Origin: Flaccisagitta enflata
Lineage: Eukaryota
Assembly (NCBI GenBank): GCA_965153355.1
Contig: OZ231126.1
Location: forward strand, 41,974,001 to 42,038,000
Direction of reading: 5' to 3'
DNA: 64,000 nucleotides
Made by a program: the position numbers and the translations under genes
Notes under the pieces: model-generated
Database searches by the model: none
What the model was told of the DNA's origin: nothing
Seen by the model: only the letters and a program-made list of their open reading frames with translations
Shown here: positions 15,910 to 57,452 of the stretch, piece by piece
Numbering within the stretch: the stretch's first letter is position 1
How the letters are laid out: every line of letters begins with the position of its first letter

Positions 15910-17460
<1,551 letters not shown>

Positions 17461-17461
17461 A

Positions 17462-23737: not shown

Positions 23738-23797
<60 letters not shown>

Positions 23798-23799
23798 CT

Positions 23800-24317: not shown

Positions 24318-24389
<72 letters not shown>

Positions 24390-25068: not shown

Positions 25069-25130
<62 letters not shown>

Positions 25131-25733
25131 TCTCACTTTATGTCTCTGTCCGTCTCTATCTGTCTCCTTCTCTGTCTCTCTCTCCCTGTCTTAACTAAAA
25201 TTTCACTAAACCAGCTTATCATCTGTTTTGTGATTTGGACAGTCTTGTGAGACTAGTGGAACTACTTAGTCTCATCATACATTTAAACCCCGCTCTAACG
25301 GATTTCAGGGGACCAACAGATTTCTTCTGTTATAGGCGGACTTCTGTTAATGCCAATAAAGGAAATAAAAGAAATTAACTTGAAGGGACCATGAATTTGT
25401 GTCTGTTATAGGCGGAATTCCGTTGGTGGCGGGTCCATTCAGAGCGGGGTTCAACTGTACCTGTTGTTTCTCTGTCTATCTGTTTAATTCTCTTTTGTAA
25501 TTTGGACAGTCTCATGCGACAAGTGGAACTACCTAGTCTCACCATACCTGTTGAATCTCTGTCTATCTGTCTATCTCTCTCTTTTTTATGATTTGGACAG
25601 TCTCATGAGACAAGTGGAACTACTTAGTCTCACCATACCTGTTGTATCTCTGTATCTGTCTATCTCTCTCTTTTTTGTGATTTGGACAGTCTCATGAGAC
25701 AAGTTGAACTACTTAGTTTTACCATACCTGTTG

Positions 25734-25794
<61 letters not shown>

Positions 25795-26493
25795 CACTTT
25801 ATGTCTTTGTCCGTCTCTATCCGTCTCCTTCTCTGTCTCTCGCTCCCTGTCTTAACTAAAATTTCACTAAACCAGCTTATCATCTGTTTTGTGATTTGGA
25901 CAGTCTCGTGAGACTAGTGGAACTACTTAGTCTCATCATACATTTAAACCCCGCTCTAACGGATTTCAGGGGACCAACAGATTTCTTCTGTTATAGGCGG
26001 ACTTCTGTTAATGCCAATAAAGGAAATAAAAGATATTAACTTGAAGGGACCATGAATTTGTGTCTGTTATAGGCGGAATTCCGTTGGTGGTGGGTCCATT
26101 CAGAGCGGGGTTCAACTGTACCTGTTGTTTCTCTGTCTATCTGTTTAACTCTCTCTTTTTAGTAATTTGGACAGTCTCATGCGATAAGTGGAACTACCCA
26201 GTCTCACCATACCTGTTGTATCTCTGTCTATCTGTCTATCTCTCTCTTTTTTATGATTTGGACAGTCTCATGGGACAGGTGGAACTACTTAGTCTCACCA
26301 TACCTGTTGTATCTCTGTATCTGTCTATCTCTCTCTTTTTTGTGTTTTGGACAGTCTCATGAGACAAGTGGAACTACTAAGTCTCATCATACCTGTTGTA
26401 TCTCTGTCTATCTGTCTATCTCTCTCTTTTTTGTGATTTGGACAGTCTCATGAGACAAGTGGAACTACTTAGTCTCATCATACCTGTTGTATC
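23800..26493. repeat. ~89-bp satellite (palindrome GTCTCATGAGAC) with ~660-740-bp higher-order units
   Basis: tgtgatttggacagtctcatgagacaagtggaactacttagtctcaccatacctgttgtatctctgtctatc... repeated; interrupted three times by the same CT tract, spacer and MITE. Confidence 0.95.
24539..24716. mobile_element. 178-bp TA-TSD MITE (pogo/Tigger-like); co-amplified copies at 25280-25457 and 25941-26118
   Basis: TA|CAGTTGAACCCCGCTCT ... AGAGCGGGGTTCAACTG|TA inserted at the monomer site catcaTAcctg. Confidence 0.92.
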
Positions 26494-27990: not shown

Positions 27991-28160
27991 GTACGTTCCG
28001 AGCAAAAAGGGCATTATATGGAGGATCTACTGTACGCAACACATTAAATTCAAATATCATAATCTGTGGTTTTTCTGAAAGCCAATGATGCAAGGAATTC
28101 CGCGAACATATTTTTGATACTCTGGCTGCAAAAGGTGAGCACACAGAAAAAAAGTCGTGC
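27991..28160. mobile_element. Left terminal repeat (first 2 nt missing) of the tRNA-cassette TIR family; inverted partner at ~42443-42608
   Basis: About 165 bp nearly identical to the reverse complement of the segment ending 42608|TA. Confidence 0.8.
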
Positions 28161-28262
28161 ACATGTCTGGTTTTGAACCCATGACTTGACAGAATCGCTT
28201 TTCCCAATGCAGAGAAAAGAAGATCTGAAGTCGCGCACGCTAACCATTCAGCTAGCGAGACA
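28157..28262 (-). promoter_or_regulatory. tRNA-derived Pol III A/B-box cassette (not a functional tRNA)
   Basis: - strand TAGCTGAATGGTTAGCG ... GGGTTCAAAACC followed by a T-run; extra hairpin between the boxes; acceptor stem does not pair. Confidence 0.6.
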
Positions 28263-28535
28263 CGGGTGCTAAGGAGGAAAAACAGTTGGATAAATTCTAA
28301 TCCAGCGCTCATTTCACCATCCAAGCGCGGTTGTTCAAAATGTTTTTTTCTTTGTCATGTGCATCGCCAACTTTCATTGATTCATGTAATTGAACCGATA
28401 AACGACCGAAAAAAGAGATAAACAAATCAACTTACGAACTAACAAGTAGACCAAAGACGGAACAATTAAAGGAAAAAAGCACTGCACTGAAAAGGAAATA
28501 GAAATGATCTACTTACAAAAAAAGAACGAAAACGC

Positions 28536-28607
<72 letters not shown>

Positions 28608-28895
28608 AAAAGAAAAAAGAAAGAAAGAAAAAGAAAGGAAGAAAGTAAGTGAAAAAAGAAAGAAAGAAAGAAAGAAAGAAAGAAAAAGAAAAAAGAAAGA
28701 AAGAAAAAGAAAGGAAGAAAGAAAGTGAAAAAAGAAAGAAAGATAAAGAAAGAAAGAAAGAAAAAGAAAGAAAGAAAGAAAAAGAGAGAAAGAAAAAGAA
28801 AGAAAGAAAGAAAAAGAGAAAAAGGAAAAGAAAGAAAGAAAAAGAGAGAAAGAAAGAAAAAAAGAAAAAGAAAGAAAGAAAGAGAAAGAGAAAAA

Positions 28896-28967
<72 letters not shown>

Positions 28968-29240
28968 AAAAGAAAAAAAGAAAGAAAAAGAAAAAAAGAA
29001 AGAAAATGAAAAAAAGAAAGAAAATGAAAAAAAGAAAGAAAAAGAAAAAAAAGAAAGAAAAAGAAAAAAAGAAAGAAAAAGAAAAAAGAAAGAAAAAGAA
29101 AGAAAAAGAAAAAGAAAGAAAGAAAGAGAAAGAAAAACAGAAAGAAAGACAGAAAGAAAGACAGAAAGAAAGACAGAAAGAAAGACAGAAAGAAAGACAG
29201 AAACCGATTGATGGACGTACTGACTATCAGAAAGAAAGAA
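28536..29240. repeat. Degenerate (GAAA)n polypurine tract
   Basis: Direct reading. Confidence 0.95.
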
Positions 29241-29999
29241 ACAAGGCCGGATACAGGGCAAGACGGTCGCGGAAGGTTGGGCAGGAGCCATAATGCAAAG
29301 GTGTAGAATTGCGTGTCCGTCACTAAAAAGGCAGAGAAAGAAAGAAAAAATAAAGATAAAATTAATGGAAGAAATGTAGAAAAAACAAGGCCGGATACAC
29401 GGCCAATACCAGTTGCGGACGGATGGGCGGAAATGCGTGTTTTCACACTTTCCAACTCGATCATCACGGACGGATGGACCAATGGACCGACGGACGGACG
29501 GACAAAGCCTCTTATAGATTTGCGTGTCCGCAACTAGAAATATAAACTGTCTCTAGACGACCTAAATATTCGCACAGTTACACCTACTATAACAAAAAAA
29601 AAAACGCCAATAGCAAATCAACAAGGCCGGATACACGGCCAATAGCAGTTGCGGACGGGTGGGCAGGGGCGGAAATGCGCGTTTTCACACTTTCCAACTC
29701 GATCATCATGGACCGATGGACCAAAGGACCAACGGACGGACAAAGCCTCTTATACAGTTGCGTGTCCGCAACTAAAAAGAAGAAATATACAATTCCAAAA
29801 AGCGTCATCCACGCGATTTTCGAGCCGCGATGGAACGTGATACCAACCTTCTGTCAAGACTTTTGCAAGTAATTGTCTACCATATTCATTCATATTTATT
29901 CATTCATATCTCATACCGCTAAAAGTTAGATGCATTTTAAAACTAACAAGTATATATCAAGAAAATGACCTGTGATTTACAGATTTTCACTTTCCGCGC

Positions 30000-30240
30000 T
30001 ATTCATGAACATTCACGAACATTAACGAATGTTCGAGGACATTCAAAGACATTCTGGGACATTTACGAACTTTCATGAATATTCAAAAATGTTAACGAAA
30101 ATTCATGGATGTTCACAAATGTTTACAAATGTTCACGAACATTCTTGTACATTCACGAACGTTCTTGTACATTCACGAATGTTCTTGTACATTCACGAAC
30201 ATTTACATACGTTCACGAACATTCACAAACATTCGTTCAT
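30000..30240. repeat. ~10-bp degenerate repeat (ATTCACGAAC); inverted counterpart at ~32730-32870
   Basis: Direct reading on both strands. Confidence 0.75.
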
Positions 30241-30825
30241 CATTTTATTGAAATGACACGCGTCTCAACGGTCGCCTCTGTACATAATAAAGGACGTATA
30301 AATATATACAAATTCCCCCTCAGTGTAGAGACTGAGCGACAACCGTGATGCTCTTTTCTCTCCTAATATTACGCGTATGGGGCCGCTGCGGATTTTCGTG
30401 ACAGTAAAGCTGCAGATTTTCATGACTGTAAAGCTGCTGATTTTTATGACAGTGAAGCGACAGAGCTCTGCCAGTCCGTTCTGTCTACGTTTTGGATACA
30501 CGGCCAATACCAGTTGCGGACGGATGGGCAGGGGCGGAAATGCGCGTTTTCACACTTTCCAAGGCTAAGAACCAAGGGCAATAGGTTTGATGATTTAATT
30601 GTCAAAATACGGACCAACCGACCAATCAGTACTATACTAACAGGCAGTCAAACACGCAGCTGTAAAGGAGATGACTAAGAATATGGCGGCGACGATGATG
30701 AAGACGCAAATCAAAGTGAATATTGTATCGACGAAGACAAGATGAAGATGACAAATTGACGATGATATCAAAGATGAAAACGTTAATAGAACTGAGATCA
30801 CGGAATATGATTTAGGTGCGGATAT

Positions 30826-31448
30826 GACGCACTGAAAATTACCATAGAATTTGTTACCCGAGATAGATAAATCATGAAATTTATAAAATGAAATTTAATG
30901 ACAATTTTTGTTTCTATGTTTTCAATTAAACTGTCAACAGCCATATTTTGCATGAATTGACTTGCATATGCCGGTTTTAAATTCCAATCCTTTATTTTAC
31001 AGCTGAAAAAATATGCAAAATACATTAAAAAACTTTTGTCAATGTACCATGGCTCATTGAAAATTTCAAATTTGCATAGAAAATCCAAATATCAACAAAA
31101 CAAGAACATAGCGCGATTCCTAAGACACAAACTGAGGGCGCTATGTTCTTATTTTAATGATATTTGGATTTTTCCTGCAAATTTAAAATTTTCATTGAGC
31201 AGTTACGGAAAAAGATTGTCGCTATTTTTTTAACTTTTTAGTCTCATCAGAATCGAATTCCCTTCAATCTTATAGCATCTTTGTCATTTGACAGTGACAG
31301 ATCGATTTCCTCATGTAAGTTTACACATTTAAGTAAAAAAAAACAAACAAAAACAAGCATCAACCTAAGCAAACATAGTAAAGCAAACGCGTTTAAACAG
31401 TAACTCTGTCCTCTGGGTAAATTCCTCTTGCTTTTATTCCAGTGCGTC
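30826..31448 (+). mobile_element. ~620-bp non-autonomous TIR element with a 4-bp TSD (ATAT)
   Basis: ATAT|GACGCACTG ... CAGTGCGTC|ATAT; internal ~150-bp palindrome at 31050-31200; homologous copy at 34357-34966. Confidence 0.85.
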
Positions 31449-33087
31449 ATATGATTATTTATCATTCAAACAATTTTGGATACCATGGTTGTGTATGATC
31501 CATAATATGAAAAGCTAATCAAGCAATTTTGAGTCTTTATGCGTAATCCACGCTCAGTTCACCATCATGATGAATGGAAGGATTAGCTGACCGAACAAAC
31601 AAGCATGAAGTTTTGACGAGGCTGCTGTTGTTGCTGACTTGCTGTAGCTACAACTGTAACTTGTATTGCTCCGCCTATCGTTCCTCCTGCTCTTCTTCCT
31701 CCTTCTCCCCTTCCTCCTCCTTTTCTTCTTTTCTCTTTCTCCCCTCCCCAGTAGGAAATACAAGACAAGGTCGGATACACGGCCGATAAGTATTTGCTGG
31801 TGTTTGGGCAGGGGAGTAATACGGTGGGCAGGGGCAGGATGGGGCAGGGTTAGGCTGTTATGTGGCGGGGTAGGGTCACTATTGCTTAGAAATCACCAGT
31901 ACAGTCAATTTTGTGTCATTAAGATTCTCGCGTTACCATACTTCCAACATACCTACCTACCTACCTACCTACCTACCTACCTACGGACACAACCTCTTAT
32001 AGAGTCGCTTAGCCAGTGACTAAAGATTGGTAATTGAAAATTGTTATGAACAAACGGACTGACAGACCAAGATGGCAAGGTGTGGATTGCTTGTTCGTGA
32101 TTTAATAAGGCCAAGATTTGGCAAATAAGTGCGCCTCGCTGGATAAATGAGAAGTGAATGAACGTTTTGAATGAATGAATGAATGAATGAATGAATGAAT
32201 GGATGAGTGAATAGCGCATCTGTTCACGACCGAAAACGCGTTTCTTTCCTCGAAGGTGTTTACAGCGTGAACACATATTTATGAATTTCAACTGTCCCAC
32301 GAGGGAGTGAGCGAAGTGAGTGAGCGAGCCTGAGAACCTAGCAAGCAAGCAAGCAAAGCAAGCAGAGCGAGAGCGAGTGAGCGATGCGAGCGAACGAACG
32401 AAGCAAGCAACCGAGTGGCCCATTAAAAACGTGATTGTCTTTGACAAGAAACGCCCCCTGAGATTATGGGTCACTTGTGCGTGCATTTGCACATTCCCTA
32501 GTGCATAGATTTGCAGGTTTGCTCGTGCGTGAATTTGCACATTCGCTTGTGCGTACATTTGCACGCTCGCTTATGTATACATTTTCATGCTTGCTCGTTT
32601 ATGCGTTTACGCGCTCGCTCATGTGTACTCATTTACTCGTTTGCACGCTTTGTTCGTATTTTCCCGCTTTCTGCATTTAAATTTCCCCCATGTATGCATC
32701 AGTACCCTCGATCATGAATGCATTCAATTTGATGAATATTGGTGAACGTATTTTCGTGTGTTTGTATTTTTGTGAACGTATGTTTGTGAATGTTTGTAAA
32801 CGTACGTTAAAGTTCGTGACTCTCCGTGGATTTCCGTGAACATTTTAAACGTTTGTTAATGTTCAAGAGCATTTGTGCACAGCGGGCCTTAACTGGGTAT
32901 GAGTTTAAAAAAATCCCCAATGGTAGTGACTTGTATGAGAAGGTACAATTTATAGTGGAGAATTGATGTAAACCCTTAAAAAAAGATTTCCCTTGAAAAT
33001 TTTTGCAAAAATCGTCTAAAAGTATCAATTTTCGCATATGTTTACATATAGATCTCAAGGATAAATCAGTTTCAAAATTCTTACTAA

Positions 33088-33801
33088 AGATTCACATTTT
33101 TGGTGAAATTTCCAATCATTTGATAGATCACACTTGGGTGCTTCGCATAGAAAAAGTTGGTTATTTCTTTTCACCCTCTTTACCAAATTAGAGTAGATAA
33201 TTTTAGAACCCTTAGCATTTTACTTTTATCAAAAATCGTTCATCTTCCGTTTTTTAGAAAATTGTTATTGAGGACCTAATTTGCATAATGCAGTGGGATG
33301 AAGAAATATGCTGACATTGTTTGAATCAGCTTTCACAAACTTCTACTCTTCATAAAGTTGTAATTCTGCTTTTTTATAAGCTCTTTCATAGCTTATTTTC
33401 TGATGTTTCATTTTATTTTTACAAACATCATGATTTTATAAACCAAATAATTGTCCTTTTTGTAACAAAACTAGAAAGGATTTTGCTGAATTCTGGGCAA
33501 TCAGTGGGAACTTTAAGGCCAAAACAAAAACGGAAGATAAAGGAATTTTAAAAAATGGTCATCTTCATGATTTTTACTCCTCCACATTACCTAAATAGGG
33601 TAAAGGGATACTCACAACTTTTGCTATGTGAAGCACCCAAAGGTCACACTGTATACTTTTATGAAAAAATAAGATTTTCATTTTTCATACCACCGTTACA
33701 AAGAAAGCAACGGTGGCCTAAGATATGAAAATCTTATTTTTTCATGAAAGTATATAATGTGACCTATCAAATGATTGGAAATTTCATCAGGAATGTGAAT
33801 C
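33088..33801. mobile_element. TTAA-site TIR element (Kolobok/piggyBac-type target) inserted in the left TIR of 32878-41212; itself contains a palindromic MITE at ~33642-33764
   Basis: gattcacatt..tg.tgaaatttccaatcatttgatag.tcaca inverted at both ends; the empty site cttaagggtattat is present in the right TIR. Confidence 0.7.
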
Positions 33802-34008
33802 TTAAGGGTATTATCGACCCATGATGAAAAAAAATTACTAAATTCTTTGCTGGTGATGAATGTGATGAATGAACCAGAAGTAATTATTCGCAAAAAACCG
33901 TTCCCCTTTTGCTTAATCCGTTCTATCTCGACAAAATATGTGTCATAACCACCAAAGTTGAGGGGAAATGCAAGAAAAAAAGAATCTTCGCCTCAGCGAA
34001 AAATTGTT

Positions 34009-34087
34009 AATGAGCGAGAGTCGAACTCGCAACGTAATAATGTCTAGGAATTCTTGGTCACAAACGTTACCACTAAGCTAACATCTC
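34009..34087 (-). ncRNA. tRNA-like sequence (tRNA pseudogene or SINE head)
   Basis: - strand A-box TAGCTTAGTGG, perfect T-arm GCGAG-TTCGACT-CTCGC, downstream TTTTT; anticodon arm not canonical. Confidence 0.55.
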
Positions 34088-34356
34088 ATGCTGATAGCGA
34101 GGATAACAATGATGGTTTTATTTCAAAAAATCAATTCTGGCAACCAACCACCGCTGTCAAAAGAAATTCATAGGAAGTCGACTCTGACGCGTCTTGGATG
34201 CTTGATCAGCTGGGATTAGCATTGGTCAGTGAATCAAAAGGAGGGAGAGAGGGAGCGAGAGAGGGGAGGGAGTGAGTGAGTGAGACAGAGCAAGGGAGTA
34301 GTATGGGAGTGAGCAAGTAAGATTGGGACTGAGCAGAAGAGCATGTAAGGCTGTAA

Positions 34357-34966
34357 GACACACTGAAAGTAAATCAGGAAGAGTTTACCCGGAGGACAAA
34401 CTTACCAATCGCTTTACCATTTTTGCTTCGATCCATGATTATGTTATTATCTCAAAAATTAGATATGCATACAAATGTAAGGAAACCAATCTGTTGCTGT
34501 CAAATGACTGAAATGCAAAAAAACGAAGGTAACTTGCTTTTGATGTGACAAATCAGTAAGAAAAATGATAACAATCATTTCAGCAACTGCTCATTGAAAA
34601 TTTTGAATTTGCATTGGAAATCAAAAAATCAACAAATTAAGAACATAGCGCGCCCAGTTAATGAGTTAGGAATCGCGCTATGTTCTTGTTTTGTTGGTAT
34701 TTTGATTTCCTATGCAAATTTAAAATTTTCAATAGACCATGGTACATTGACAAAGCAAGTTTTTTATTCTATTTCGCTTGTTTTTTCAGCTGTAAAACAA
34801 AGGATTTGAGATTAATACTGCCCAATGCAAGTTATTTCATGCAAAATATGTATGTTGACAGTTTGATTGAAAACATCAAAGCAAAATTTTTCATCAAATT
34901 CCATTTTATAAAATTCATGATTCATCTAGCTCGGGTAGCAAATTTGATGATAATTTTCAGTGCGTC
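34357..34966 (-). mobile_element. Second copy of the 4-bp-TSD TIR element (TSD GTAA), opposite orientation
   Basis: GTAA|GACACACTG ... CAGTGCGTC|GTAA; reverse-complement homology to 30826-31448. Confidence 0.85.
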
Positions 34967-36144
34967 GTAAGCAGTAGAGCGCTCAAGCAAGCGTGCACCG
35001 TGCAAGCAAGCAAGGGAGCAGGCACAAGAAAAGAATGAAAGTTATTCTGCAGTATCTTCAAACACTTATTTGTATTTTCGAATGGTTCTGTTTTATTGAT
35101 CTTTTTTTACGTTTTGTTTTCATTTGAAGATTTTCTGTAATTTCAAACTTTATGTTATATCTGAAAGTGTGGTTGTATGACAAGGTCAGATACACGATTA
35201 TGCCAGGCGCGTGTGGATGGGCAGGGGCAGTGATAGAGAAGGGCATTTGGGCAGGAGTAGTGAGCTCAACAAGGCTGGATACACGGTAAGACAGTCGCGG
35301 ACAATTGGGCAGGGGCCGTAATGCAATAACCGCTCGGAATTCAACAAAATTTGTAACGGACCGACTGACCGACGGACCGGCCGACCGACACAGCAAGGTG
35401 TAGAGTTGCGTGTCCGCGACATAAAAGCTCAAAAAAGCCGAAAAAGCAAAAAGGGGACTGACCGACCAATCAACCGACTGACCACTAACAGACAAAACGA
35501 CCTACCAACTGACGAACAAAGTGGATGTAGAGTCACGTAGTAGGTAGTTGGTAGTATTACTGAAATTTTTCATATATTCTTGTAAGTTTTTCAAGTCCTC
35601 AAATGTTCTGTTGTATTATCAAATTTATTTTTGCAATTCTAATCTTTGGTTGTATTTCTGATTATTTTGTAGTATTTTCAAATGTCTTATTGTATTTCCG
35701 AATGGGTTGTCGAAATTTTTGCTTTTTTTTTTGTTTATTCGCATGTTTGCTATACTTGTGAATGTTTTTAGTCGTGGACGCCAGACTGTACAACTAGCCG
35801 TGTTGGTGGGTAGGTAGGTCTGTCACAATCCTGAATTGCAAGCGGTTTTTGCATTACTGCCCCTGCCCAACCATTTGCGACTGTCTTGCCGTGTATCCGG
35901 CCTTGTTTATACTTAGAAAGGTTTTGCTGTACCTTCAAATTGTTCTTTTTTTTCACATTCCATTTTTCCAATGAATTGCTGTTATTTCTGGTCTATACGG
36001 ACTAGCAATCCCCTGATGAGGGGCTTCAGGAGGAGAATTACAAAGAGGACAATAAAGATGGTGCTAACAATCAGTGTGCTGCGTCTCTTTGCATGAATGC
36101 GTGTGTATGAAATATTTACGAAATGTATATACAATATATATGTA

Positions 36145-36225
<81 letters not shown>

Positions 36226-36611
36226 TGTGCGTGTGTGTGTGAGGTCGATGTTGCTGCTGTTTTGGTAGTCGCTGTCATTGTTGTTATTGCCGTCGTTATC
36301 GTAATTGTCGTCATTCACTCACTGAAGCACCCCGTCCACGGAGGGACACGCTTACCGATTTGGGCTCGCGTTTGTGCTGCGCACAGTTAGTTTTTGCCAT
36401 CTATACAGCGCAATCACACACTTCTCTTGCATTCTTGCAGACTCAGTCCTTATCATTCTCGTCCTCATCGTTATTGTCACTGTCGTTGTCATTGTCATTG
36501 TCATTGTCATTGTTGTTGTCGTTGTCATTGTCATCGCTGTTGTCGTCATCACTGTCGTCGTTGTTGTTGTTGTTGTCGTCGTCTTTGTCGTCGTCGTCGT
36601 CGTCGTCGTCG

Positions 36612-36681
<70 letters not shown>

Positions 36682-37459
36682 ATGTTGTTGTTGTCGGTGA
36701 TTCTCATAGTCGTCGTCGCATTTATTTGTTGGTTGTTGTTGTAGTTGTCGGTTGTTGTCATTGCTGTTGTCGTTATTGTCCGCTGTTGTTGGTTATTGTT
36801 GTCATCGCTCATGTCATCATTATCGTTGTCGTCGTTGTCATCGCCATCGTCAATGTCGTTGTCACTGTCGTTATGTGATTTTTGCTCGTTTTGTTTTTGT
36901 TGTTTTCATTTTTGTTTAGGTTTTTGTTTTCATTTTTGTTGTTGTTTTTAGACGCGTGCACGTGACTCTACAACCGGCTTTGTCTGTTGGTTGGTCGGTC
37001 GGTCAGTCAGTTGGTTGGTCGGTCACGTTTTACTTTTATGATTTTATTTCTTTGACCTCACTGCTCCTGCCCAAATGGTCTAGTGACCTCAAATATGGCC
37101 CCTGCCCACCCACACGCGACTTCCGTAGCCGTGTATCCGGCCTTGTTGTTTTCTTTGTTGATTTTTTTTTGTTGTTGTTGTTGTTGTTATGGTTTCTGTA
37201 TTCATTTTCGTCATTATTTTTTGTTTTGTTGCTGTTTTTGCCTTTGTTTTCATCTTCCTTGTTGTTGTTTTCATTTTCGTTATTGTGTTTTCATTTTTGT
37301 TGATGTTTTTGTTTTTGTTTTAGTTATCGTTTTTGTTTTTGTTAATGAAATTTTTGTTTTTGTTGGCGATTACGAAATCGAATTCGAATGTGCGGTTGCC
37401 GATCATCAGAGCTTTGCGTACTTTTCCGTAGCACTTGATGTTTGTTCCGTTCGCTGCTC

Positions 37460-38245
37460 ATAGCATAGCTGAGTGCCGTTGGGGCCAAGGCGACGTTGGG
37501 GTTTTGTTGGCAGGATGATGGAGAGGAGGGCCCCGCCATCGACTTGCAATTTGTTTCCTCCAATTTTGTCCTTTTGGTGAAAGAGATCGCCGTTTTGGCC
37601 AGTCGCGGCATTCACGCTTGTCGATAGATGGGACGTTGTTGAACTTGTCGCTGCCGCGCTTGCAAGTGCCCGCGAGCCCCATCGCCGAATTGCACGTGGT
37701 ACTTGCATAATCTCTGTGCGGTGGCTGCGCCCTTGTTTTTTTGTGAACCGGACTGTTGCGGCTTTCCTCTTTTGGGAGTGCCGGCTGAAATGCCGCTGCG
37801 TGAGTTCGGGGTGGAAAATGCTTTGGGTGAGTCCGCTTTTTGGCGTTGCTGGTTGCCGCAGCGGTTGCGCTGCGGAAGACCGCGTCCGACGGCGTTGGCG
37901 TTGTCGTCGTCGATGCTGAAGCTCTCAAAAGAGGCGGAGACTGCGTTTGCATTGCTCGCTGTTGTTTTGTTGGGCCAAACTCGGAGCGGAGGTAGTTCAA
38001 GAATGCTGTCCACTGTGCGTCAGTTGCATCGCCGTATCAGTACTCGTCGATGTTCGGGTCGTAACCCACGGGAAACTTGATTTCCGGAAATGCTAACGTC
38101 TCGTTCGTTGCACTTATGTTCGCGCCAGTGATGGCGTAATCGTAAGCGGACGCAGACGCGCTGTACTCAACATTTTGGCTGTACTTGTAAGCGTGATCAT
38201 AAGCGTTCCCTCAATTTCTGCGTAAGTGTTCATCATTCCAACGCC

Positions 38246-38313
<68 letters not shown>

Positions 38314-38605
38314 CCCGAATGACAGAAACGGGATGTCCCCTTTGATGCAACTTATGAGCGTCCACGCACATCACTAGGTTGATCAGTTGTTTGCTTGCTT
38401 GGTAATATGCAAAGGTCAAAAATCGCGCAAAACATCCAATTTTTCTTTCTTGCTCTATTTCTTTCTCTCTTTCTCTCTTTCTTTCTTTTTTTCTTTTTTT
38501 CTTTTTTTCTTTTTTTCTTTTTTTCTTTTTTTTCTTTTTTTCTTTTTTTCTTTTTTTCTTTTTTTCTCTTTTTCTCTTTTTCTTTCTTTCTTTCTTTCTT
38601 GCTTA

Positions 38606-38673
<68 letters not shown>

Positions 38674-38939
38674 TTTCTTTTTTTTTCTTTCTTTCTTTGC
38701 TCAGTCTTTCCTTTTTTTCTTTCTTTCTTTCTTTACTCAGTCTTTCCTTTTTTCTTTCTTTCTTTTTCTTTCTTTCTTTCTTTGCTCAGTCTTTCCCTTT
38801 CTTTTTTTCTTCTTTCTTTGCTCAGTATTTCCCTTTCTTTTTTTTTTTCTTTCTTTCTTTCTTTGCTCAGTCTTTCCCTTTCTTTCTTTCTTCCTTTCTC
38901 TTTCTTCTTTTCTTTCTTTCTTTTTCTTTTTTTGCTCAG

Positions 38940-38990
<51 letters not shown>

Positions 38991-39196
38991 GTTTTGCTCA
39001 GTCTTTCCCTTTCTTTTTTTTCTTTCTTTTTTCTTTCTTTTTTCTTTCTATTTTCTTTTTTTTTTCTTTCTTTTTTCTTTCTTTTATTCTTTCTTTGATT
39101 CTTTCTTTGATTCTTTCTTTGATTGATTTGATTGATTGATTTGATTGATTCTTTCTTTGATTGATTTGATGGATTGATTTGATTGATTTGATTGAT

Positions 39197-39248
<52 letters not shown>

Positions 39249-39653
39249 TCCTTCATTCGTTTTTTCTTTTTTTCTTTCGTTGAATTTGGCCAAAATTGGC
39301 TTTACTGTGTAAGAGCTCTAGTAGATTGAGTTGTACTCGTTGTGTACTCGTAATCGTAATCGTACGTGGTCAAAGATAGAAGGAATCATAAGCGTAATCG
39401 TACTCACTCATGCAGTAACGTACGGTGCCTCGCAATTGGTCTAAAACACATCGCGTTACCATCGCTGGTTCGCGCATGTGAAGGCGTTCTCCGTCCTTTT
39501 GATCCATATTTCTACATGGTTCTTGTCAAACGGAGGGATTTCCGGCTTTTTGCGGATGGCGTCTGGCATTGAGGCTGCTGCTACGGCCGTTTCGTTGCGA
39601 ACTTCGTCGCGGAGTTGTTCGCGGAGCCCGTCGAGTTGCTCTTGCGTAGTCAT
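37460..39653 (-). pseudogene. Decayed Gypsy-type LTR retrotransposon gag-protease fragment
   Basis: N-terminus MTTQ...KKPEIPPFDKNHVEIWIKRTENAF continues in frame after removing 38126-39467 (…FPEIKFPVGYDPNIDEY*YGDATDAQWTAFLNYLRSEFGP); knuckle LCKYHVQFGDGAR/TCKRG; protease-like LFHQKDKIGGNKLQVDGGALLSII. Contains a stop and frameshifts; no RT/IN seen. Confidence 0.8.
38126..39467. mobile_element. hAT-like non-autonomous element, 8-bp TSD GTTCGCGC
   Basis: TSD at 38118-38125 and 39468-39475; ends CAGTGATGG / CCATCGCTG; subterminal gtaatcgta and gtactc motifs; interior mostly microsatellite. Confidence 0.88.
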
Positions 39654-41781
39654 TTCTGTTGCAGCTGGGGCATTGTCAAATTGATGAGGTTTGTTTCATT
39701 TTGTTTTCGTTGTTGTTATTGTTTCTGTATTCCTTTTCGTCAATGTTTTTTGGTTTTGTTGTTTTCGCTTTTGTTTTCATTTTTGTTGTTGTGTTTTTGT
39801 TGTTGTTTTTATTTTTGTTTGTGTTGTTTTCGTTTGTTTTTGTTGTTGTTTTCGTCGTCATGGTTGTTGTTTTCATTTTCATTGTTGTTGTTTTCATTTT
39901 TGTTTTGTTGTTTCTCTTGTTGTTTTCATTTTTGTTGTTATCATTATTTTAGTTTTGTCATTGTTGTTTTTGTTTTTGTTCTCGTTATTGTTGTCTTTGT
40001 TTTCATTTTTGTTGTTGCTTACATTGTTGGTTTTGTTTCGTTTTTGTTGTTTTTTCATTTTTTTTATTGTTGTTCTCCATTTCATTTTTGTTGTCGTTTT
40101 CCATTTTGTCGTTTTTTTTTTCATTTTCATTGTTGTTTTTGTTGTTGTTGTCAGTTGATGTCATTGTTCTCAGTTGTTGTTTTCGGCGAGTGTCATTGCT
40201 GTTGTCGTCGTCCCTTTCGGTTGTTGATTGTTGTTGTTGCCATTTTCATCGCCATGTCATCATTGACGTTGTTGTCGTTATCCTCGCTGTCGTCATTGTC
40301 GTTGTCGTTGTATGGTTTTCACTCTTAGGGATGTTAAGCTGGTAATGGTGCATTAGTGTATCGCTGAATAATGACCACGGTAATAGCTTTCGTCTACACT
40401 TGGTTGCCTGCTGCACTAAAACTCAGAATAGTGTGTTTCCCTAGTAACCCGTTTCCTAGATACCAAGCCGAAAACACAAAGATCAAAGTCTAAGTTATTT
40501 GATTCAGGCTTTACCCAGTTCATATCAGGAAAAGTCAAAGGAGCTGATATGAAAAAATAACAGGTACGTTTTTCCTTAGGTTCTAGATCGCAGAGAGCCA
40601 CGAAATTTTACATGTGACATCGGACAGAGATGGTGAAGGGTTGTGGGGATCAAAATTTTTGAAACATTGGTTTTTTGGCACCTTCACAGCGGCTTCCATT
40701 TTTCATTCATTGTTTTACCTATAATAGATGGCTTCCAGTGAACTTTTGATTCCCCACAGTTGTTAGTGCACATTTACTTAATCCAAATCTGCAATTCATT
40801 AGGATTTTGAAGGTCCACTGTCTTCCTAATATGTTCCAACATGAGGTGTTACTTTTACTAATTTAGCAAATATTGTATGTAGAAGAAAATAAACATTGGG
40901 CCTATCGATTTCACATTCGTTGGCACTCATTGAGTGTCTCTAACCCAAACCAGGCCCGAAAAAGTCATCTCATGAATTTTCATCAAGAGCTTATAATACC
41001 CTTAAGTCAGAATTTTGAAACTGATATATCTTTGAGATTTATCTGCAAATATATACAAAAATTGATTATTTTTAACAATTTTTGAAAAAATTTTCAAGGG
41101 AAATTTTTTTTCAAGGCTTTGCATCAATTCTTCAATATAAATTGTACCTACTCATACAAGTCACTACCATCGGGGATTTTTTAAAACTCATACCTCGTTA
41201 TGGCCCACTGTGTGTGTACGATTGTAAACCACGGGTGAATCGCGCGGCCAGTGAAAATCGCCGCTCTTTTTTTTAATCTATACTTTTTCAAAATGCGACT
41301 TGTACGGTATGAGATTTGAAATATTGCCCAGTCCGGATTGATTTTTTCTTTTTCTCTTATTTTGTCTTTTTTTTTTCTGTTTTTCTTTCTTTCTTTCTCT
41401 CTTTCTCACTTTCTTTCTCTCTCTCTTTTTCTTTAAAGTTGCAGACACGCAACTTTAAGAGCCTTTGTCCGTCCGTCCGTTGGTCGGTCCATCTGTTGGT
41501 CCGATCCATAGCCAAATCGAAAAGTGGGAAAATGAGTGTTTTAGAACTTTTTTTTGTATGTGTCTGTGTTGGGAAGGGGGTTGGGTGTGGCTGGGGGTTG
41601 GCCCCCCCCCCTGCCCACCCGTCCGCAACGATATTGTGACCCCGCGTCACTTGTTCTTTTTCTTTTTCACTACTTCCTCTTTTACTACTTTCTCTTTTTT
41701 CTTTCTTTCTTTTTTGTCTTTCTCTCCTTTTTTTTTCTTCTCTTTCTTTCTCTCTTTCTTTCTTTCTCTCTTTCTTTCTTC

Positions 41782-41815
<34 letters not shown>

Positions 41816-41816
41816 C

Positions 41817-41847
<31 letters not shown>

Positions 41848-42339
41848 GTCAGTTTTCACGTCCATCAATTGGTAAGTTGGTCCACTTAGCCTCTTCATAA
41901 ATAGCGCGGATGATGGAACAAGTTACCTTTTCTTTCTTTCTTTCTTTCTTCCTTCCTTCCTTCCTTCCTTCCTGCCTTCCTTCCTTCCTTTCTTTCTTTT
42001 GTTTACATCCTTTCCTTGTTTGTTGAGAATTTTAAATCCCGTTCTTGTGCAGCGTTTGCCGTTTTTTATCAAAATGTCCTTTCTTTGGTTTACTTGTTAG
42101 TACGTTTGTTGTTTTGTTCATCTGTTTGTCTACCCGACCATAGGTTCATTAATTGGTCATTTCATTTTAGCTTAATTTCCATTTTTAAATGCTTTTATAC
42201 AATGTCATAGAGGCATTCTATTTAAAATTATATGACTAATCCACGATGCGAAATTTCATTTCAAACAACTTGGCGCGTGAGTGGAAAAAAAGCAACAAAA
42301 TAGAATATGATTGACTGCTCTTCCTTCACTAGCGCCCGT

Positions 42340-42450
42340 GTCTCGCTAGCCTAATGGATAGCGTTGTGACTCCTGGACTTCTTTTCTCTGTAATGAGAAA
42401 AGTGATTCTGTCAAGTCTCGGGTTCAAAACTGTACGTGTGCACTTTTTTT
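42340..42450 (+). promoter_or_regulatory. tRNA-derived Pol III A/B-box cassette next to the right TIR (which ends 42608|TA)
   Basis: TAGCCTAATGGATAGCG ... GGGTTCAAAAC ... TTTTTTT. Confidence 0.6.
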
Positions 42451-42655
42451 CTGTGTGCTCACCTTTTGCAGTCAGAGTATCAAAATTATGTTCGCGGAAT
42501 TCCTTGCATCATTGGCTTTCAGAAAAACCATAGATTATGATATTTTAATTTAATGTGTTGCGTACAGTAGATCCTCCATATAATGCCCTTTTTGCTCGGA
42601 ACGTACTGTACTTAGTCGCGTTTGCGTTGTGACTCCAGAAAATCTATAAAACAGT

Positions 42656-42914: not shown

Positions 42915-43459
42915 GATTAGGAGCATTTTTTCGAACATATGATTGAAATAATGTTTATATGTCTCATAAATGAATGGATTGAATATTCACACCGAATGAT
43001 ATGTCTTGAGTGTGCGCGACTAAAAAACTTTTTCCCTATGTCCGTTGGTCCTTCCGTGGGTTAGACTCAAGTCTGAAAGTATGAAAACGCGTGTTTGATG
43101 CCGCGGCCCGGTTGTGATAGTTTATGTGTGGAGGGGGGTAGTATGCCCCTGCCCACCCGTTCGCGACGATATTTCAACCCAGCGTTACTTGTTAATTTTG
43201 CCGCTGAACTTTTTAGGTTTATTTTATATGTCAGTCTTTACTTAGATGATACGGTTATTTAAATCCATTCCACGAATTCTTTTATTAGGTAACGGGCGTA
43301 TTGTCCCTATTTTCATTTACATTCAAGACCATGGGTATTAGGCATGCCCGGGAAAAAAATTTATGGGCCCATAGAAATTTAGAAATAAAAATTCGAGTTC
43401 TTTTTCTGTTTTTCGTTTACACATTAAATCTAACACACACTCCAACAAAAAAAGCTTAC

Positions 43460-45366
43460 TTGTAACAAATCACAGCCAAGTTGAATTTTTCTTGGTTCGT
43501 TGGATCATCTTTTGCGTAGTCATGGTTCTGCAGCAAAGTCCGTGACGTTGAAACTAAAACATTGGATGACGATGACGACGATGAAGTTGATGATGACGCC
43601 GACGGCGATGAAGTTGATGTAGGGCACGTCACTGACAACGCCAATCGCGTCGTTGTCGCCGTCGTCATTGGCGTGGGCGTCGTCGTCATTGTCGTCGTCA
43701 TTGTCGTCGTTGTTCCAATCAACGTGGCGGACTTTAAAGAGGTCAATAACGCCGATGACGACGACGGTGATAACGAGGACGACGTTAATGACGATGATGA
43801 CGGAACCGGTGATGTCACAATTTTGGCGGAACGCGCACGACGCGAGGATGATGATGATGACGATAACTTCGATGAAGCTTGACGCCGATCGACGCCGGGA
43901 TAAGCAGAAGCTGTTGACATAGTCTCTAGGGCGCCGGCGGCTGTGATGGCTGCGGCGGCGGCAGCAGTTACAACGGCGGAGGCGGTGGCGGTGGCGGTGA
44001 CCGGATGAACAATGGTGGCGGTGGCCGTAACGCTCGGTTCCGTGACGATGGACGCGGTGCCGATGATGTGGCAGCCGGCGCCGATAATATTTCCGCCTTT
44101 GCTGGCGCCGAAAATCGGCGTTGCTCTCGTGAGACCGCTGCCGGAAATCGGCGTCGTCGTTGTCGTTATCGGCGTCGTGTCTCTGCCGATGGAGCAAATC
44201 GCCGATGAATCATCTCTCAATAATGACGAAGCCGTCTTGGCTCCATTCCGTGTCCCGGGTGAATGCGTCGCGTTTATGTTCGTCGTTAATTTCGTCGTCG
44301 TTCTCGTCGTCATCATCATCGTCGTCGCTGGTTCCATCGTCTTTGCCGTCGTCTTCATCGTTGTCGCTTCACTTTGCCTCGTAGAAAGTTGTATCAATTC
44401 GTATTTTCCATCTAACGAGAAAGACGCTTTTCCCTCGTCGTCGTCGTCGTCGTCGTCGTCGTTTTTGTGGCGAATTTGTTCGTCCACTCTGCCGCCTTTG
44501 TCGAGTTTGTTAACAATATTATCAATTTCATTGCATTTGTTGCGTTCTCCGTTAACATTTGCCGTTTTACCGTCGCCGTCATCGCCGTTACGGTCGCCGT
44601 CATCGCCGTTACGGTCGCCGTTGTTTTCAGTACTCTCGACGTTCATTCTCGCCGTCGCGCTGGTCCTCAAAAACGCCGTTGGCGAAATCGCGATGGGACG
44701 AATCGCGTACGGAAATTTGGTCGAGGTTGTGGTGGTAGTAGTCGCTAAAGATGGAGGTTCCGAGGATTGACGCTGGTCTAGAGGAAGTGGAGGGTCGTGA
44801 TGATGATGATGATGATGATGATGAAGATGATGATGAAGATGAGGAGGAGGAGAGATAGGAGGGGTCGAAGCGGTTGAACTAGGCGGAGAATATAGAAGAT
44901 GATGTTGATGATCGCTACGAGGCTGATCGCTCGCATTATCATTAATACCACGAGATGATTCGTTTTCATTAGATCCGTATCTTTGATGATACGCTCTAGA
45001 AGCGATATAATGACGAAGATCCGGGGAAGTTCGATTTCGCGGGATTGAACCCGGGGAAGACGAAGCGGAGGAAGGGGAAAAAGAGGACGAAAAGGAAAGG
45101 GAAGGAGAGTAGGAGGTAGAAGAAGCGTAGAAAGGGGAAGGTCCGAAGTAAGCAGGCTGAGGCGGAGGAGGAGGAGGGGGAAAAAGAGGCGGGTCATCGT
45201 CTATGTTTTTGTCCCTTGAGGAGTTTAGATCATGACGCCCATGAAACTGAGGAGGGAAAATCACTTGAATAGGTTCAATTGAGATTCGAGGAAAATCTGA
45301 TAAATCCTCGGAAGAAGAGGAGGCGGAGGAAGGAGGATGCTCGTTCCACCACTCGAACGATGATGG

Positions 45367-45464
<98 letters not shown>

Positions 45465-45957
45465 CTTTTGAAAGCGTGAATTGATTCACTCGTCCATGTT
45501 TGTCAACGTTAATTGTCGTTTTCCCAAAGTCGCTTTGTGACATCTCTTCCCTTCCATTGATCCCTTTCACATTGTTCCTTCTATCTCTTCCTTCTATCTC
45601 TTCCTGATATTAGCATTTCCTCCTCTTTTCCCTCCTCCATCTCGCCTCCCACTCCCACCTCCGCCCATCTCGTGTTTCTTTTATCATCTTCCATTTCGGG
45701 ATATTCTCCAAGGGACAGTTCTTCCTCCATTTTATCTAAATCGCTCACGTCAGCAGGCGGATAACTTTCGCTGCGGGCGATAACCCTTCGCGAACCACCC
45801 GGTGAGCCTTGTCTCGTCGTTTCCTGCGCTGCCGACGTCGTCGTCGTCGACATTGTCTTTTTGTTCTTCACTGTCGTCATCGTCGTCGTTATCGTTGTAA
45901 CGTCGTCTGCGCCACTTTCTGTCTTCGACATCACGTTTGCGTCAACACTTGAATTAA
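43460..45957 (-). CDS. Large internal exon encoding an intrinsically disordered S/T/P/Q/H-rich region of an unidentified protein; frameshifted at ~45578-45603
   Basis: Acceptor ttccttctctcctctcgttcag| at 45958 and donor AA|gtaagc at 43459; GC-rich coding-like composition; 704-codon open frame; the two ORFs fuse if one 13-bp copy is removed; ends ...HDYAKDDPTNQEKFNLAVICYK. Confidence 0.72.
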
Positions 45958-56515: not shown

Positions 56516-57452
56516 TGTTAGTCGCGTGAACGCGACTCTAGAAGCCGCTATGTCGGTCGGTCTGTTGGTCGGTCGGTCGGTCCGTAACTTTTTTGAAATA
56601 TATGCTTTATAGTCGTTTTAAAGGTTATTGAAGGTTATTGAAGGTAATTGTAGGTAAGTTTTGGTAATTATAGGTAATTTTAGGTAATTTTAGGTAATTA
56701 TAGGTAAATATACAGTACGATGGGAGCAATAAGAGCAGTATAAAGAGGGCCCTCTATATTCTTACTGTTTGAAGGATGAACCTAAAGCTTTGGTTTTTCT
56801 GAAAGCTGATGGTCCAAGGTATTGAGTGAATACAAAATTCCAAACCAAGTGATTCATGACAAAACTGCCAATTGATATTTTAATGTATGTGGTGCGATAG
56901 CTCTGTTGATAGAGTGATGAACTTGAGAAAGTTAATTTCTCTCTCTTCAGTGTCACAGGTTCAAATCCCGAGTGGTGCTGCACTTTTTTTCTTTTTGGTC
57001 AACAGTTAGAGCTAGAGGAATAAAACTATATTCACTCAAAGCTCTTGCTCATCAGCTTTCAGAAAAACCATAATTGAAGCTACTTCATTAGAATAGTGAA
57101 GCAGGAAATGACCCTCCATCTGAGGTTTTCATTGCTCCTGTGGTACTGTAGGTGTTTTAGTAATCTGTATCATATAAGTAAGAAAAGTTGTCTCGGACTA
57201 TAAATTGAGGTAATTGTAGGAAATATAGGAAATAATGGGTAATTTTAGGTGACTATAGATAATTAATGGTAATTTAATGCAATTGTAGGTAGTTATAGGT
57301 ACTTACAGGTAGTTGTGGGTAATTATAGGAAGATATAGCTACTTAGTTATCTTCATTATCTTTATTACCTTAATTACCTTAATTACCTTCATTACCTTAA
57401 TTACCTTTATTACCCTTATTACCACGCGACTAAGGTTTGTTGACCTTGTTTT
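56516..57452 (+). mobile_element. DINE-1/Helentron-like element (subTIR AGTCGCGTG) with 10-bp AGGTAATT repeats
   Basis: 5' tagtcgcgtgaacgcgactct-(gtcg)n; 3' cacgcgacta + aaggt..acctt + gtt. Confidence 0.75.
56713..57148. mobile_element. 436-bp TA-TSD MITE with ~110-bp imperfect TIRs and a central tRNA-like cassette (56891-56990)
   Basis: TA|CAGTACGATGGGAGCAAT ... ATTGCTCCTGTGGTACTG|TA; inner IR ggtttttctgaaagctgatg / catcagctttcagaaaaacc; A-box-like TAGCTCTGTTG, B-box GGTTCAAATCC, T7 run. Confidence 0.85.

What the first reader, a model, noticed from the sequence alone, without database searches (positions are those of the whole stretch)
56713..57148. DNA-transposon family carrying an internal tRNA-like Pol III cassette
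Seen: a complete TA-flanked MITE has an A-box-like/B-box/T-run cassette at its centre. Diverged relatives at 27991-28262 and 42340-42608 share the TIR motifs (gctttcagaaaaacca; ttgctc.....gtactg|TA) and also have A/B boxes and a T-run at a similar distance from the TIR, although the cassette sequence differs greatly. All three have an extra hairpin between the boxes (GAGAAA..TTTCTC; TTTTCTC..G(A/G)GAAAA), where a tRNA intron would lie; the 42340 copy loosely recalls intron-containing tRNA-Arg(TCT). tRNA heads are normal for SINEs, not for TIR elements. Inference: the boxes are retained for a function, such as a small Pol III RNA or a TFIIIC-bound barrier that protects the element from silencing.
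Basis: partly seen in the sequence, partly recalled or inferred. Interest (0 to 1): 0.7.

Follow-up and report, generated by a model that had tools for sequence, protein, structure and literature searches.

The report
Mini-transposon carrying a decayed tRNA relic
This is a very abundant small cut-and-paste transposon of a marine eukaryote that carries a worn-down tRNA-gene-like piece as a passenger; nothing here shows that the piece is kept for a function.

Summary
The described anatomy is real. 56713-57148 is a complete 436-bp non-autonomous TIR element: TA|CAGTAC...GTACTG|TA, 15 of 18 terminal bases inverted, ~125-bp arms ~70% alike. It sits in a 10-bp satellite whose phase is restored when the element and one TA are removed. 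Its centre holds an A-box-like motif, a perfect B box and a T7CT5 run. The Rfam tRNA model scores this only 15.2 bits (threshold 29); ARAGORN finds nothing.

27991-28271 (-) and 42331-42608 (+) are not two independent relatives. They are a 90%-identical inverted pair of right ends, homologous to E1 from the cassette's 5' end to the terminus. Neither gives any tRNA hit.

The family is hugely abundant in two DNA runs of the organism, but the E1-type centre has only 13-20% of the arms' summed depth.

Between the pair, the arm is 97.4% identical and the cassette 83%, so the cassette diverges faster. The boxes are not measurably better kept than neighbouring bases.

Best reading: a Tc1/mariner-type MITE with a DNA-level captured tRNA-gene relic as passenger. 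Selection for a Pol III or TFIIIC role is unsupported but not excluded, because the B box and terminator are intact. No transposase lies in the window and no genome was available.

The parts
56711..56712 (.). left TA target-site duplication of E1
   Evidence: the phase of the flanking 10-bp satellite is restored when the element and one TA are removed; joints skipping 438 bases
56713..57148 (+). E1: complete 436-bp non-autonomous TIR element (MITE), CAGTAC...GTACTG
   Evidence: 3817 contig pieces of run X1 and 3639 of X2 lie on it at 80% likeness or more
56713..56838 (+). left arm, including the 18-nt TIR (56713-56730) and the subterminal motif TGGTTTTTCTGAAAGC (56791-56806)
   Evidence: inverted alignment to the right arm, ~70% identity; nhmmer arm profile E = 2.5e-34
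56839..56890 (+). centre-left spacer, specific to the E1 subfamily and the most variable part
   Evidence: 35-40% identity to E2/E3 over 56871-56890; 10 of 38 positions (56853-56890) with common variants plus small insertions
56891..56980 (+). tRNA-like segment with a ~20-nt insertion in the anticodon-loop region
   Evidence: Rfam tRNA 15.2 bits, E = 2.7, below the gathering score of 29; ARAGORN none
56898..56908 (+). A-box-like motif TAGCTCTGTTG
   Evidence: 7 of 9 specified positions of the recalled consensus TRGCNNAGTGG; no common variant
56925..56941 (+).
   Evidence: z = -1.07, 33 of 200 shuffles fold as well; not formed in the minimum-energy fold of the cassette
56958..56968 (+). B box GGTTCAAATCC
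   Evidence: exact match to GGTTCRANNCC; no common variant
56984..56996 (+). T7CT5 run (Pol III terminator-like), at arm-level depth in the runs
   Evidence: ACTTTTTTTCT is invariant in E1, E2 and E3
57024..57148 (+). right arm, including GCTTTCAGAAAAACCA (57055-57070) and the 18-nt TIR (57131-57148)
57149..57150 (.). right TA target-site duplication of E1
42331..42608 (+). E3: right-end copy. Cassette ~42337-42450 (A-box-like 42347-42357, B-box-like GGTTCAAAACT 42421-42431, T7 42444-42450), arm 42451-42608, ending GTACTG followed by TA
   Evidence: no tRNA hit
27991..28271 (-). E2: right-end copy in the opposite orientation. B box 28169-28179, A-box-like 28244-28254, A7 28147-28153, arm 27991-28146. 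The last two terminal bases and the TA are missing
   Evidence: no tRNA hit
41995..42330 (+). sequence inward of E3 that is still inverted-homologous (~69%) to 28272-28540 inward of E2, followed by the (CTTT)n / (AAGA)n arrays

Best explanation
E1 is a member of a very abundant family of non-autonomous cut-and-paste elements of the Tc1/mariner type: TA target duplication, CAGT... termini, ~125-bp inverted arms, no coding capacity. The arms, above all the 18-nt tips and the 16-18-nt subterminal motif, are the part that transposition needs. The centre is cargo that differs between subfamilies.

In the lineage leading to E1 and to E2/E3, the cargo next to the right arm is a piece of a tRNA gene taken up as DNA. 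It kept its A and B boxes and its own T-run terminator, and has no CCA or poly-A. It has since decayed and no longer reads as a tRNA. It spreads only because it lies between working ends.

Because the B box and a T7 run survive, some copies may still bind TFIIIC or give a ~100-nt Pol III transcript, but as a by-product rather than a maintained function.

Shown: the element's anatomy, abundance, homology between subfamilies and the divergence pattern. Inferred: the superfamily, the capture route and the passenger status.
For: - TA|CAGTAC...GTACTG|TA, satellite phase restored on removal; joints skipping 438-439 bases in X1, X2 and X3.
- Arms inverted at ~70% identity, with a conserved tip and motif.
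- Abundance: 3817, 3639 and 756 pieces laid from X1, X2 and X3.
- No coding capacity and no transposase. 0 of 7 ORFs (7 chosen of the 20 ORFs of 200 aa or more listed). 0 of 106 ORFs (106 given of 196 that passed my low-complexity filter, out of 312 ORFs of 70 aa or more).
- tRNA origin: Rfam tRNA 15.2 bits across the whole model. The E-value of 2.7 counts 4227 families; for the single family asked about my arithmetic gives ~6e-4. The D-arm is close to a standard one. The near-fixed family letter C at 56893 turns the U.G pair 3-70 into C-G.
- The T-run lies 3' of the tRNA-like part in sense orientation, as in a gene and not in a retrocopy.
- Cassette ancestral to both subfamilies.
- Passenger status: E2 against E3, arm 97.4%, cassette 83%, next 300 nt 69%. 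Centre/arm depth 0.20, 0.20 and 0.13. Contigs in which the centre is skipped or replaced, e.g. 56854>56985 in X1, X2 and X3. Boxes not significantly better kept.
- Precedent for Tc1/mariner MITEs spreading Pol III-element pieces: MER6 (PMC6887750; abstract, section 2.4 and passages read).
Against: - The tRNA score is below Rfam's threshold. E2 and E3 give no tRNA hit at all. ARAGORN fails even after the two near-fixed family letters are put in. So the tRNA origin rests on one weak model hit plus motifs.
- No transposase or autonomous relative was found, so the superfamily rests on the TA duplication and the termini only.
- The B-box core GGTTCAAA and ACTTTTTTTCT are invariant in all three copies. 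The two E2/E3 differences in the A box fall on the two free (N) positions of the consensus. This is what selection on the boxes would also give.
- Summed contig depth is not a copy number (tool's own caution). A lower depth in the centre may partly reflect divergence beyond 80% likeness rather than absence.
- The step in identity between E2 and E3 could also come from recombination or conversion of the arms.
Confidence: 0.62

Rival explanations
1. The cassette is kept by selection. It is a working Pol III unit (a small RNA of ~100 nt) or a TFIIIC-binding site that shields the element or its neighbourhood from silencing.
For: - Perfect B box in E1 and E2, and 8 of 9 specified positions in E3. 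A-box-like motif 7-8 of 9. A-to-B spacing of 60-74 nt and a T7 run 15-16 nt after the B box (consensus and workable spacing recalled).
- The B-box core and the T-run are invariant in all three copies. The E2/E3 A-box differences lie at the unconstrained positions.
- 0 of 22 box positions carry a common variant in the runs.
Against: - None of these contrasts is significant: p = 0.19 for boxes against the rest of the cassette. By my Poisson arithmetic, 1 mismatch where 3 are expected gives p ~0.2 for E2 against E3.
- The cassette as a whole diverges about six times faster than the arm between E2 and E3.
- The E1-type centre has only 13-20% of the arms' depth, and centre-less joints exist.
- The acceptor, anticodon and T stems are broken and the anticodon differs in all three copies, so any RNA is not a tRNA.
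Confidence: 0.12
2. The unit [tRNA-like head - arm - GTACTG] is a SINE-like retroposon whose 3' part was borrowed from a mariner-type element, as in HaSE2 of Helicoverpa. E2 and E3 are such copies, and E1 is one that landed in or recombined with a MITE.
For: - Homology between E1 and E2/E3 begins at the 5' end of the tRNA-like head and runs to the terminus. The 20 nt before the head (56871-56890) are only 35-40% identical.
- E2 and E3 have no left arm.
- HaSE2 shows that a tRNA head joined to a mariner 3' end exists (PMC3272025; abstract and passages read).
Against: - A T7 terminator lies between head and arm, so a Pol III transcript should stop before the arm.
- E2 and E3 remain homologous for ~300 nt or more upstream of the head.
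- E1 has both TIRs and a TA duplication.
- No A-rich or LINE-like tail, and no variable-length duplications.
Confidence: 0.07
3. The tRNA likeness is a chance resemblance. The centre is ordinary MITE filler that happens to contain a B-box-like 11-mer and a T-run.
For: - 15.2 bits is below the threshold of 29, E = 2.7. No hit for E2 or E3.
- ARAGORN finds none.
- The cassette fold is not better than shuffles (z = -1.19).
- The B-box motif is expected 0.8 times per window by chance.
Against: - The model match spans all 71 positions with an intact D-arm, and the A box, B box and terminator are in the right order and spacing.
- The same three signals recur in the diverged subfamily at homologous positions.
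- The near-fixed family letter improves an acceptor pair.
Confidence: 0.12

Closest known systems
MER6/MER6A of mammals: a Tc1/mariner MITE with an embedded V-SINE fragment (PMC6887750; abstract, section 2.4 and passages read)
   Same: A non-coding, TA-flanked TIR element whose centre is a piece of a Pol III-type repeat. The piece is then multiplied by cut-and-paste transposition rather than by its own mechanism.
   Different: MER6 carries the SINE body and tail and explicitly lacks the tRNA-related head. Here only a head-like tRNA relic with its own T-run is present, with no body or tail, which points to DNA-level capture of a gene and not a SINE insertion.
HaSE2 SINE of Helicoverpa armigera: tRNA-related head plus a 154-bp 3' region from a mariner-like element (PMC3272025; abstract and passages read)
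   Same: A tRNA-related region joined to the end of a mariner-type element. E2 and E3 look like this at first sight.
   Different: In HaSE2 the head is the 5' end and there is no left TIR. E1 has two TIRs and a TA duplication, with 178 bases (56713-56890) upstream of the head. A T7 run separates head and arm, and E2/E3 homology continues upstream of the head.
Tc1/mariner-derived MITEs in general, such as Stowaway-like elements (recalled, not looked up)
   Same: TA duplication, short size, conserved ends with a variable centre, very high copy number.
   Different: No autonomous partner could be examined, and a tRNA-like centre was not found described in my literature searches.
tRNA genes and extra-TFIIIC (ETC) sites as chromatin boundaries (search listing and abstract starts only: PMC3395662, PMC4226948)
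   Same: A B box is present, the element that TFIIIC recognises.
   Different: No occupancy data exist for this organism, and the sequence is not a tRNA by any detector used.

Membership tests
Tc1/mariner-type MITE | TA target-site duplication | tested here: met
   TA at 56711-12 and 57149-50. The satellite phase is restored on removal. Joints skip 438 bases. E3 is also followed by TA. E2's tip is truncated.
Tc1/mariner-type MITE | terminal inverted repeats, termini 5'-CAGT (recalled hallmark) | tested here: met
   15 of 18 terminal bases inverted; CAGTAC/GTACTG; arms ~70% alike over ~125 bp
Tc1/mariner-type MITE | short, non-coding, many copies | tested here: met
   436 bp; no Pfam family for the one ORF that overlaps it among those scanned; thousands of contig pieces in two runs of the organism
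Tc1/mariner-type MITE | ends shared with an autonomous element that encodes a DD(E/D) Tc1/mariner transposase | not testable with these tools
   No genome is held. No transposase in the window. No family copies in the viral or metagenome collections.
tRNA gene / tRNA pseudogene | cloverleaf recognised by a covariance model or ARAGORN | tested here: not met
   Rfam tRNA 15.2 bits against a gathering score of 29 for E1; no hit for E3 or E2; ARAGORN 0
tRNA gene / tRNA pseudogene | A box, B box and downstream T-run in order | tested here: met
   E1 56898-56908, 56958-56968 and 56984-56996; the same order in E2 and E3
tRNA-derived SINE | head at the 5' end of the repeat unit, LINE-like or A-rich tail, variable-length target duplications | tested here: not met
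   In E1 178 bases including a TIR arm lie upstream of the head. E2/E3 homology continues upstream. There is no tail, and a T7 run follows the head directly.
Composite MITE with a SINE insert (MER6-like) | insert homologous to a free-living SINE, with body and tail | not testable with these tools
   No repeat library or genome of the organism was available. In the window all 3 cassettes adjoin an arm and none stands alone.

The most novel reading that the evidence does not exclude
A cut-and-paste (TIR) family, present in thousands of copies, spreads intact B-box/terminator units through the genome of a marine eukaryote. It thereby seeds many new TFIIIC sites or small Pol III genes, a job so far ascribed to SINEs. 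The subfamily that carries them is favoured because TFIIIC binding keeps the element accessible or unsilenced.
Probability: 0.1. Interest if true: 0.6.

Novelty: new variant of a known kind. Interest (0 to 1): 0.3.

Why it matters
If the passenger reading is right, this is one more example of a MITE centre filled with captured host DNA, and is mainly of use for repeat annotation. A tRNA-scan-based classifier could wrongly call this family a SINE.

It would matter more if many copies prove to bind TFIIIC or to be transcribed. A DNA transposon would then be a vehicle for dispersing Pol III promoters and boundary elements, a role known for SINEs and tRNA genes. In six searches of the open literature I found no description of a tRNA-like Pol III cassette inside a MITE. 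Subscription journals and repeat databases such as Repbase and Dfam were not searchable.

Tried and rejected
- Whole genome: none is held, so no census of copies, no search for solitary cassettes and no search for the autonomous element.
- Public collections: the 18-mer GCTTTCAGAAAAACCATA gave 5 loci in viral contigs and 77 in metagenome contigs. With the terminal GTACTG added it gave 0. blastn of E1, E2 and E3 against all 82 loci found no match longer than 48 bases, all around the typed word, so these are chance hits.
- PolyA RNA run X23 of the same organism label: 0 reads laid from about 6% of the run. The tool calls this no test, and polyA libraries are poor for Pol III RNAs. Nothing follows about expression.
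- ARAGORN with introns allowed: nothing at default or at the 90% threshold within the elements. At the 80% threshold it reports 62 'genes' in the window, i.e. noise. Putting the two near-fixed family letters into E1 inside a script did not help.
- Earlier findings of the scan: three look-ups, nothing.
- Pfam on ORFs found only weak sub-threshold, low-complexity hits.
- The 717-aa ORF next to E3 is low-complexity (poly-Q, poly-H, Ser/Thr runs) and was not pursued.
- The repeat finder on 31 kb was swamped by microsatellites; blastn and nhmmer in scripts were used instead.
- One large 14.6-kb long-TIR transposon spanning 27991-42608 was considered. The inverted homology reaches 600-900 bp inward and both copies stop at the same terminus. 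But no coding capacity lies between them, E2's tip is truncated and no TA pair is seen. Left open.

Full report
**What is at the coordinates**

The stretch 56713-57148 (E1) reads TA|CAGTACGATGGGAGCAAT ... ATTGCTCCTGTGGTACTG|TA.
- 15 of the 18 terminal bases are inverted-complementary.
- The inverted likeness runs on for about 125 bases on each side, 56713-56838 against 57024-57148, at ~70% identity.
- A 16-nt subterminal motif is kept on both sides: TGGTTTTTCTGAAAGC at 56791-56806 and GCTTTCAGAAAAACCA at 57055-57070.
- The element lies in a 10-bp minisatellite, (AGGTAATTNT)n. AGGT recurs at 56682, 56692 and 56702. After the element and one TA are removed, the next AGGT falls exactly at the expected phase (my reading).
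- Contigs of two DNA runs of the same organism label join 56710 to 57149, skipping 438 bases: 7 contigs in X1 and 3 in X2. Similar joints occur in a marine metagenome. These may be empty alleles or other arrays of the same satellite.

This is a complete, TA-flanked, non-coding TIR element.

**The cassette**

Between the arms lie three signals:
- an A-box-like TAGCTCTGTTG at 56898-56908;
- an exact B box GGTTCAAATCC at 56958-56968;
- a T7CT5 run at 56984-56996.

The Rfam tRNA model aligns 56891-56980 over all 71 model positions, with a good D-arm and a 20-nt insertion in the anticodon loop. The score is only 15.2 bits against a gathering score of 29, E = 2.7. That E-value counts 4227 families. 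For the single family asked about it is ~6e-4 by my arithmetic.

Other detectors give nothing:
- ARAGORN finds no tRNA, with or without introns.
- Rfam at gathering thresholds finds nothing in the whole window.
- The acceptor and T stems have mismatches.
- The RNA fold is no better than shuffles (z = -1.19).

It is best called a decayed tRNA-gene-like segment. The T-run follows it in sense orientation, as in a gene. There is no CCA or A-tail, which points to capture as DNA rather than retroposition (inference).

**The two 'relatives'**

27991-28271 (E2, minus strand) and 42331-42608 (E3, plus strand) are 90% identical to each other, inverted, with 14,059 bases between them.
- Each is a right end only: cassette, T7, 156-bp arm, terminus. 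E3 ends GTACTG followed by TA. E2 lacks the last two bases.
- They align with E1 from the 5' end of the tRNA-like part to the terminus.
- Identity to E1 by segment: 58-62% in the A-box part, 32-41% in the anticodon part, 67-76% in the B-box part, 85% at the T-run, 94-100% at the 18-nt motif and 59-71% at the tip.
- The 20 bases before the cassette (56871-56890) are only 35-40% identical to E1.

The cassette was therefore already next to the right arm in the common ancestor of both subfamilies.

Neither E2 nor E3 gives a tRNA hit at E <= 10. The suggested tRNA-Arg(TCT) likeness thus has no support from the model. The three copies also differ at the would-be anticodon.

The inverted likeness of E2 and E3 continues inward for some 300 bases at ~69% identity and then into (AAGA)n/(CTTT)n arrays. 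Whether they are the two ends of one 14.6-kb element or two separate ends is open. Nothing between them codes for a recognisable protein.

**The hairpin claim**

E2 and E3 share an 8-bp hairpin, CUUUUCUC...G(A/G)GAAAAG (z = -2.48, 1 of 200 shuffles as good). As one subfamily they are one witness.

E1's GAGAAA/TTTCTC hairpin is not convincing:
- It is no better than chance (33 of 200 shuffles).
- It is not part of the minimum-energy fold of the cassette.
- In the alignments E1 simply lacks about 14-15 bases there.

**The family at large**

No genome is held, and the public contig collections hold only chance hits. The one wider view is. At 80% likeness, 3817 contig pieces of X1, 3639 of X2 and 756 of X3 lie on the 516-base stretch.

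Summed depth by region (thousands):

| Run | Left arm | Right arm | E1-type centre | Centre/arms |
|---|---|---|---|---|
| X1 | 475 | 662 | 113 | 0.20 |
| X2 | 410 | 410 | 83 | 0.20 |
| X3 | 6.1 | 8.4 | 0.9 | 0.13 |

(Ratios.)

- The T-run bin is at arm level, and depth falls stepwise through the B-box half.
- Some contigs skip or replace the centre, for example 56854>56985 in all three DNA runs.
- Others bridge from the cassette into both arms' inner parts, for example pieces 56809-57007 and 56837-57013.
- The sharp dip at 56871-56888 reflects indels private to E1. The loose ends there read a close variant of E1's own sequence.
- The tool warns that summed depth is not a copy number, so the 'one fifth' is rough.

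**Is the cassette conserved for a purpose?**

Three tests were possible.
1. *E2 against E3.* The arm is 152/156 identical (97.4%). The cassette is 95/114 plus 6 gap columns (83% or 79%). The next 300 bases are 69% identical. The step at the T-run is significant (Fisher p 8e-5 to 1e-6). The ends are the constrained part and the cassette is not.
2. *E1-type copies in the runs.* Positions with a variant in 10% or more of depth number 8 of 90 in the cassette and 17 of 308 in the arms (p = 0.32). Within the cassette they number 0 of 22 in the two boxes against 8 of 68 elsewhere (p = 0.19).
3. *Box positions between E2 and E3.* 1 of the 18 specified box positions differs, where about 3 are expected at the cassette's mean rate (p ~0.2, my arithmetic). 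The two A-box differences fall on the two free positions of the consensus.

The direction of tests 2 and 3 is what selection on the boxes would give, but neither is significant. Test 1 speaks against the cassette as a whole being maintained.

The near-fixed family letters C at 56886 and 56893 show that E1 is itself a slightly worn copy. The second improves acceptor pair 3-70. ARAGORN still rejects the corrected stretch.

**Mechanism proposed**

Transposase, encoded elsewhere, binds the tips and subterminal motifs, cuts the element out and re-inserts it at TA. This is inferred from the TA duplication and CAGT termini, which are recalled hallmarks of Tc1/mariner. No transposase lies in the window: 0 of 7 and 0 of 106 ORFs scanned.

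The centres of such elements are reshaped by abortive gap repair and template switching (established for DNA transposons; inference here). One such event placed a tRNA gene with its terminator next to the right arm. From then on it was copied as cargo and decayed. Copies with a good B box may still attract TFIIIC or give a short Pol III RNA, as a side effect.

**Comparison with what is known**

- MER6/MER6A is a Tc1/mariner MITE that spread a V-SINE body and tail, but without the tRNA-related head (PMC6887750; abstract, section 2.4 and passages read).
- HaSE2 is a SINE with a tRNA-related head joined to a mariner-like 3' end (PMC3272025; abstract and passages read).

The present family differs from both. 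It has two TIRs and a TA duplication like MER6, but its passenger is a head-like tRNA relic with its own terminator and nothing else.

Six literature searches found no MITE described with a tRNA-like Pol III cassette. The library lacks most subscription journals, and I had no access to Repbase or Dfam, so this absence is weak.

**Verdict**

The functional inference is unsupported. The thing is a new variant of a known kind: a MITE with captured cargo. Interest is modest (0.3). It would rise if RNA or ChIP data showed many active copies.

Noticed in passing
window 56622-56707, 57207-57345, and inverted at 57342-57423: A 10-bp minisatellite (AGGTAATTNT)n into which E1 inserted. In the runs its summed depth (1.4-1.7 million in X1) exceeds that of the MITE arms, so it is a major satellite of this genome. 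It switches to the complementary (CTTAATTAC)n at 57342.
   Followed up: partly
window 17457-23700: A 301-bp satellite, 15.9 copies at 97% identity in its main block, with 478/485-bp higher-order variants further on.
   Followed up: no
window 11987-14996: A tandem array with a 446/313-bp period built from a 45-bp sub-repeat. Long open frames run through it, with weak sub-threshold FST_N hits of 23-26 bits against a cut-off of 27.
   Followed up: no
window 23779-26493: Four blocks of a 91-bp tandem repeat recurring every ~660-740 bases, i.e. a higher-order repeat. ARAGORN's relaxed mode gives recurrent false 'tRNAs' there.
   Followed up: no
window 43459-45609 (-): A 717-codon open frame just outside E3, made of low-complexity runs (about 34 Q in a row, poly-H, poly-D, Ser/Thr tracts), with no Pfam family above its cut-off. 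Possibly an exon of a disordered protein, or repeat-derived.
   Followed up: partly
window 28536-29203, 38442-39278, 41688-41847: Long (AAGA)n and (TTTC)n arrays in inverted arrangement inside the E2-E3 interval. Together with the ~300-bp inverted homology inward of E2 and E3, they suggest a large foldback-like structure of 14.6 kb with no recognisable coding content.
   Followed up: partly
window 7276-8057: A 20-bp minisatellite, 39 copies at 91% identity. The whole window is unusually rich in satellites and microsatellites, which suggests a heterochromatic or pericentromeric setting.
   Followed up: no
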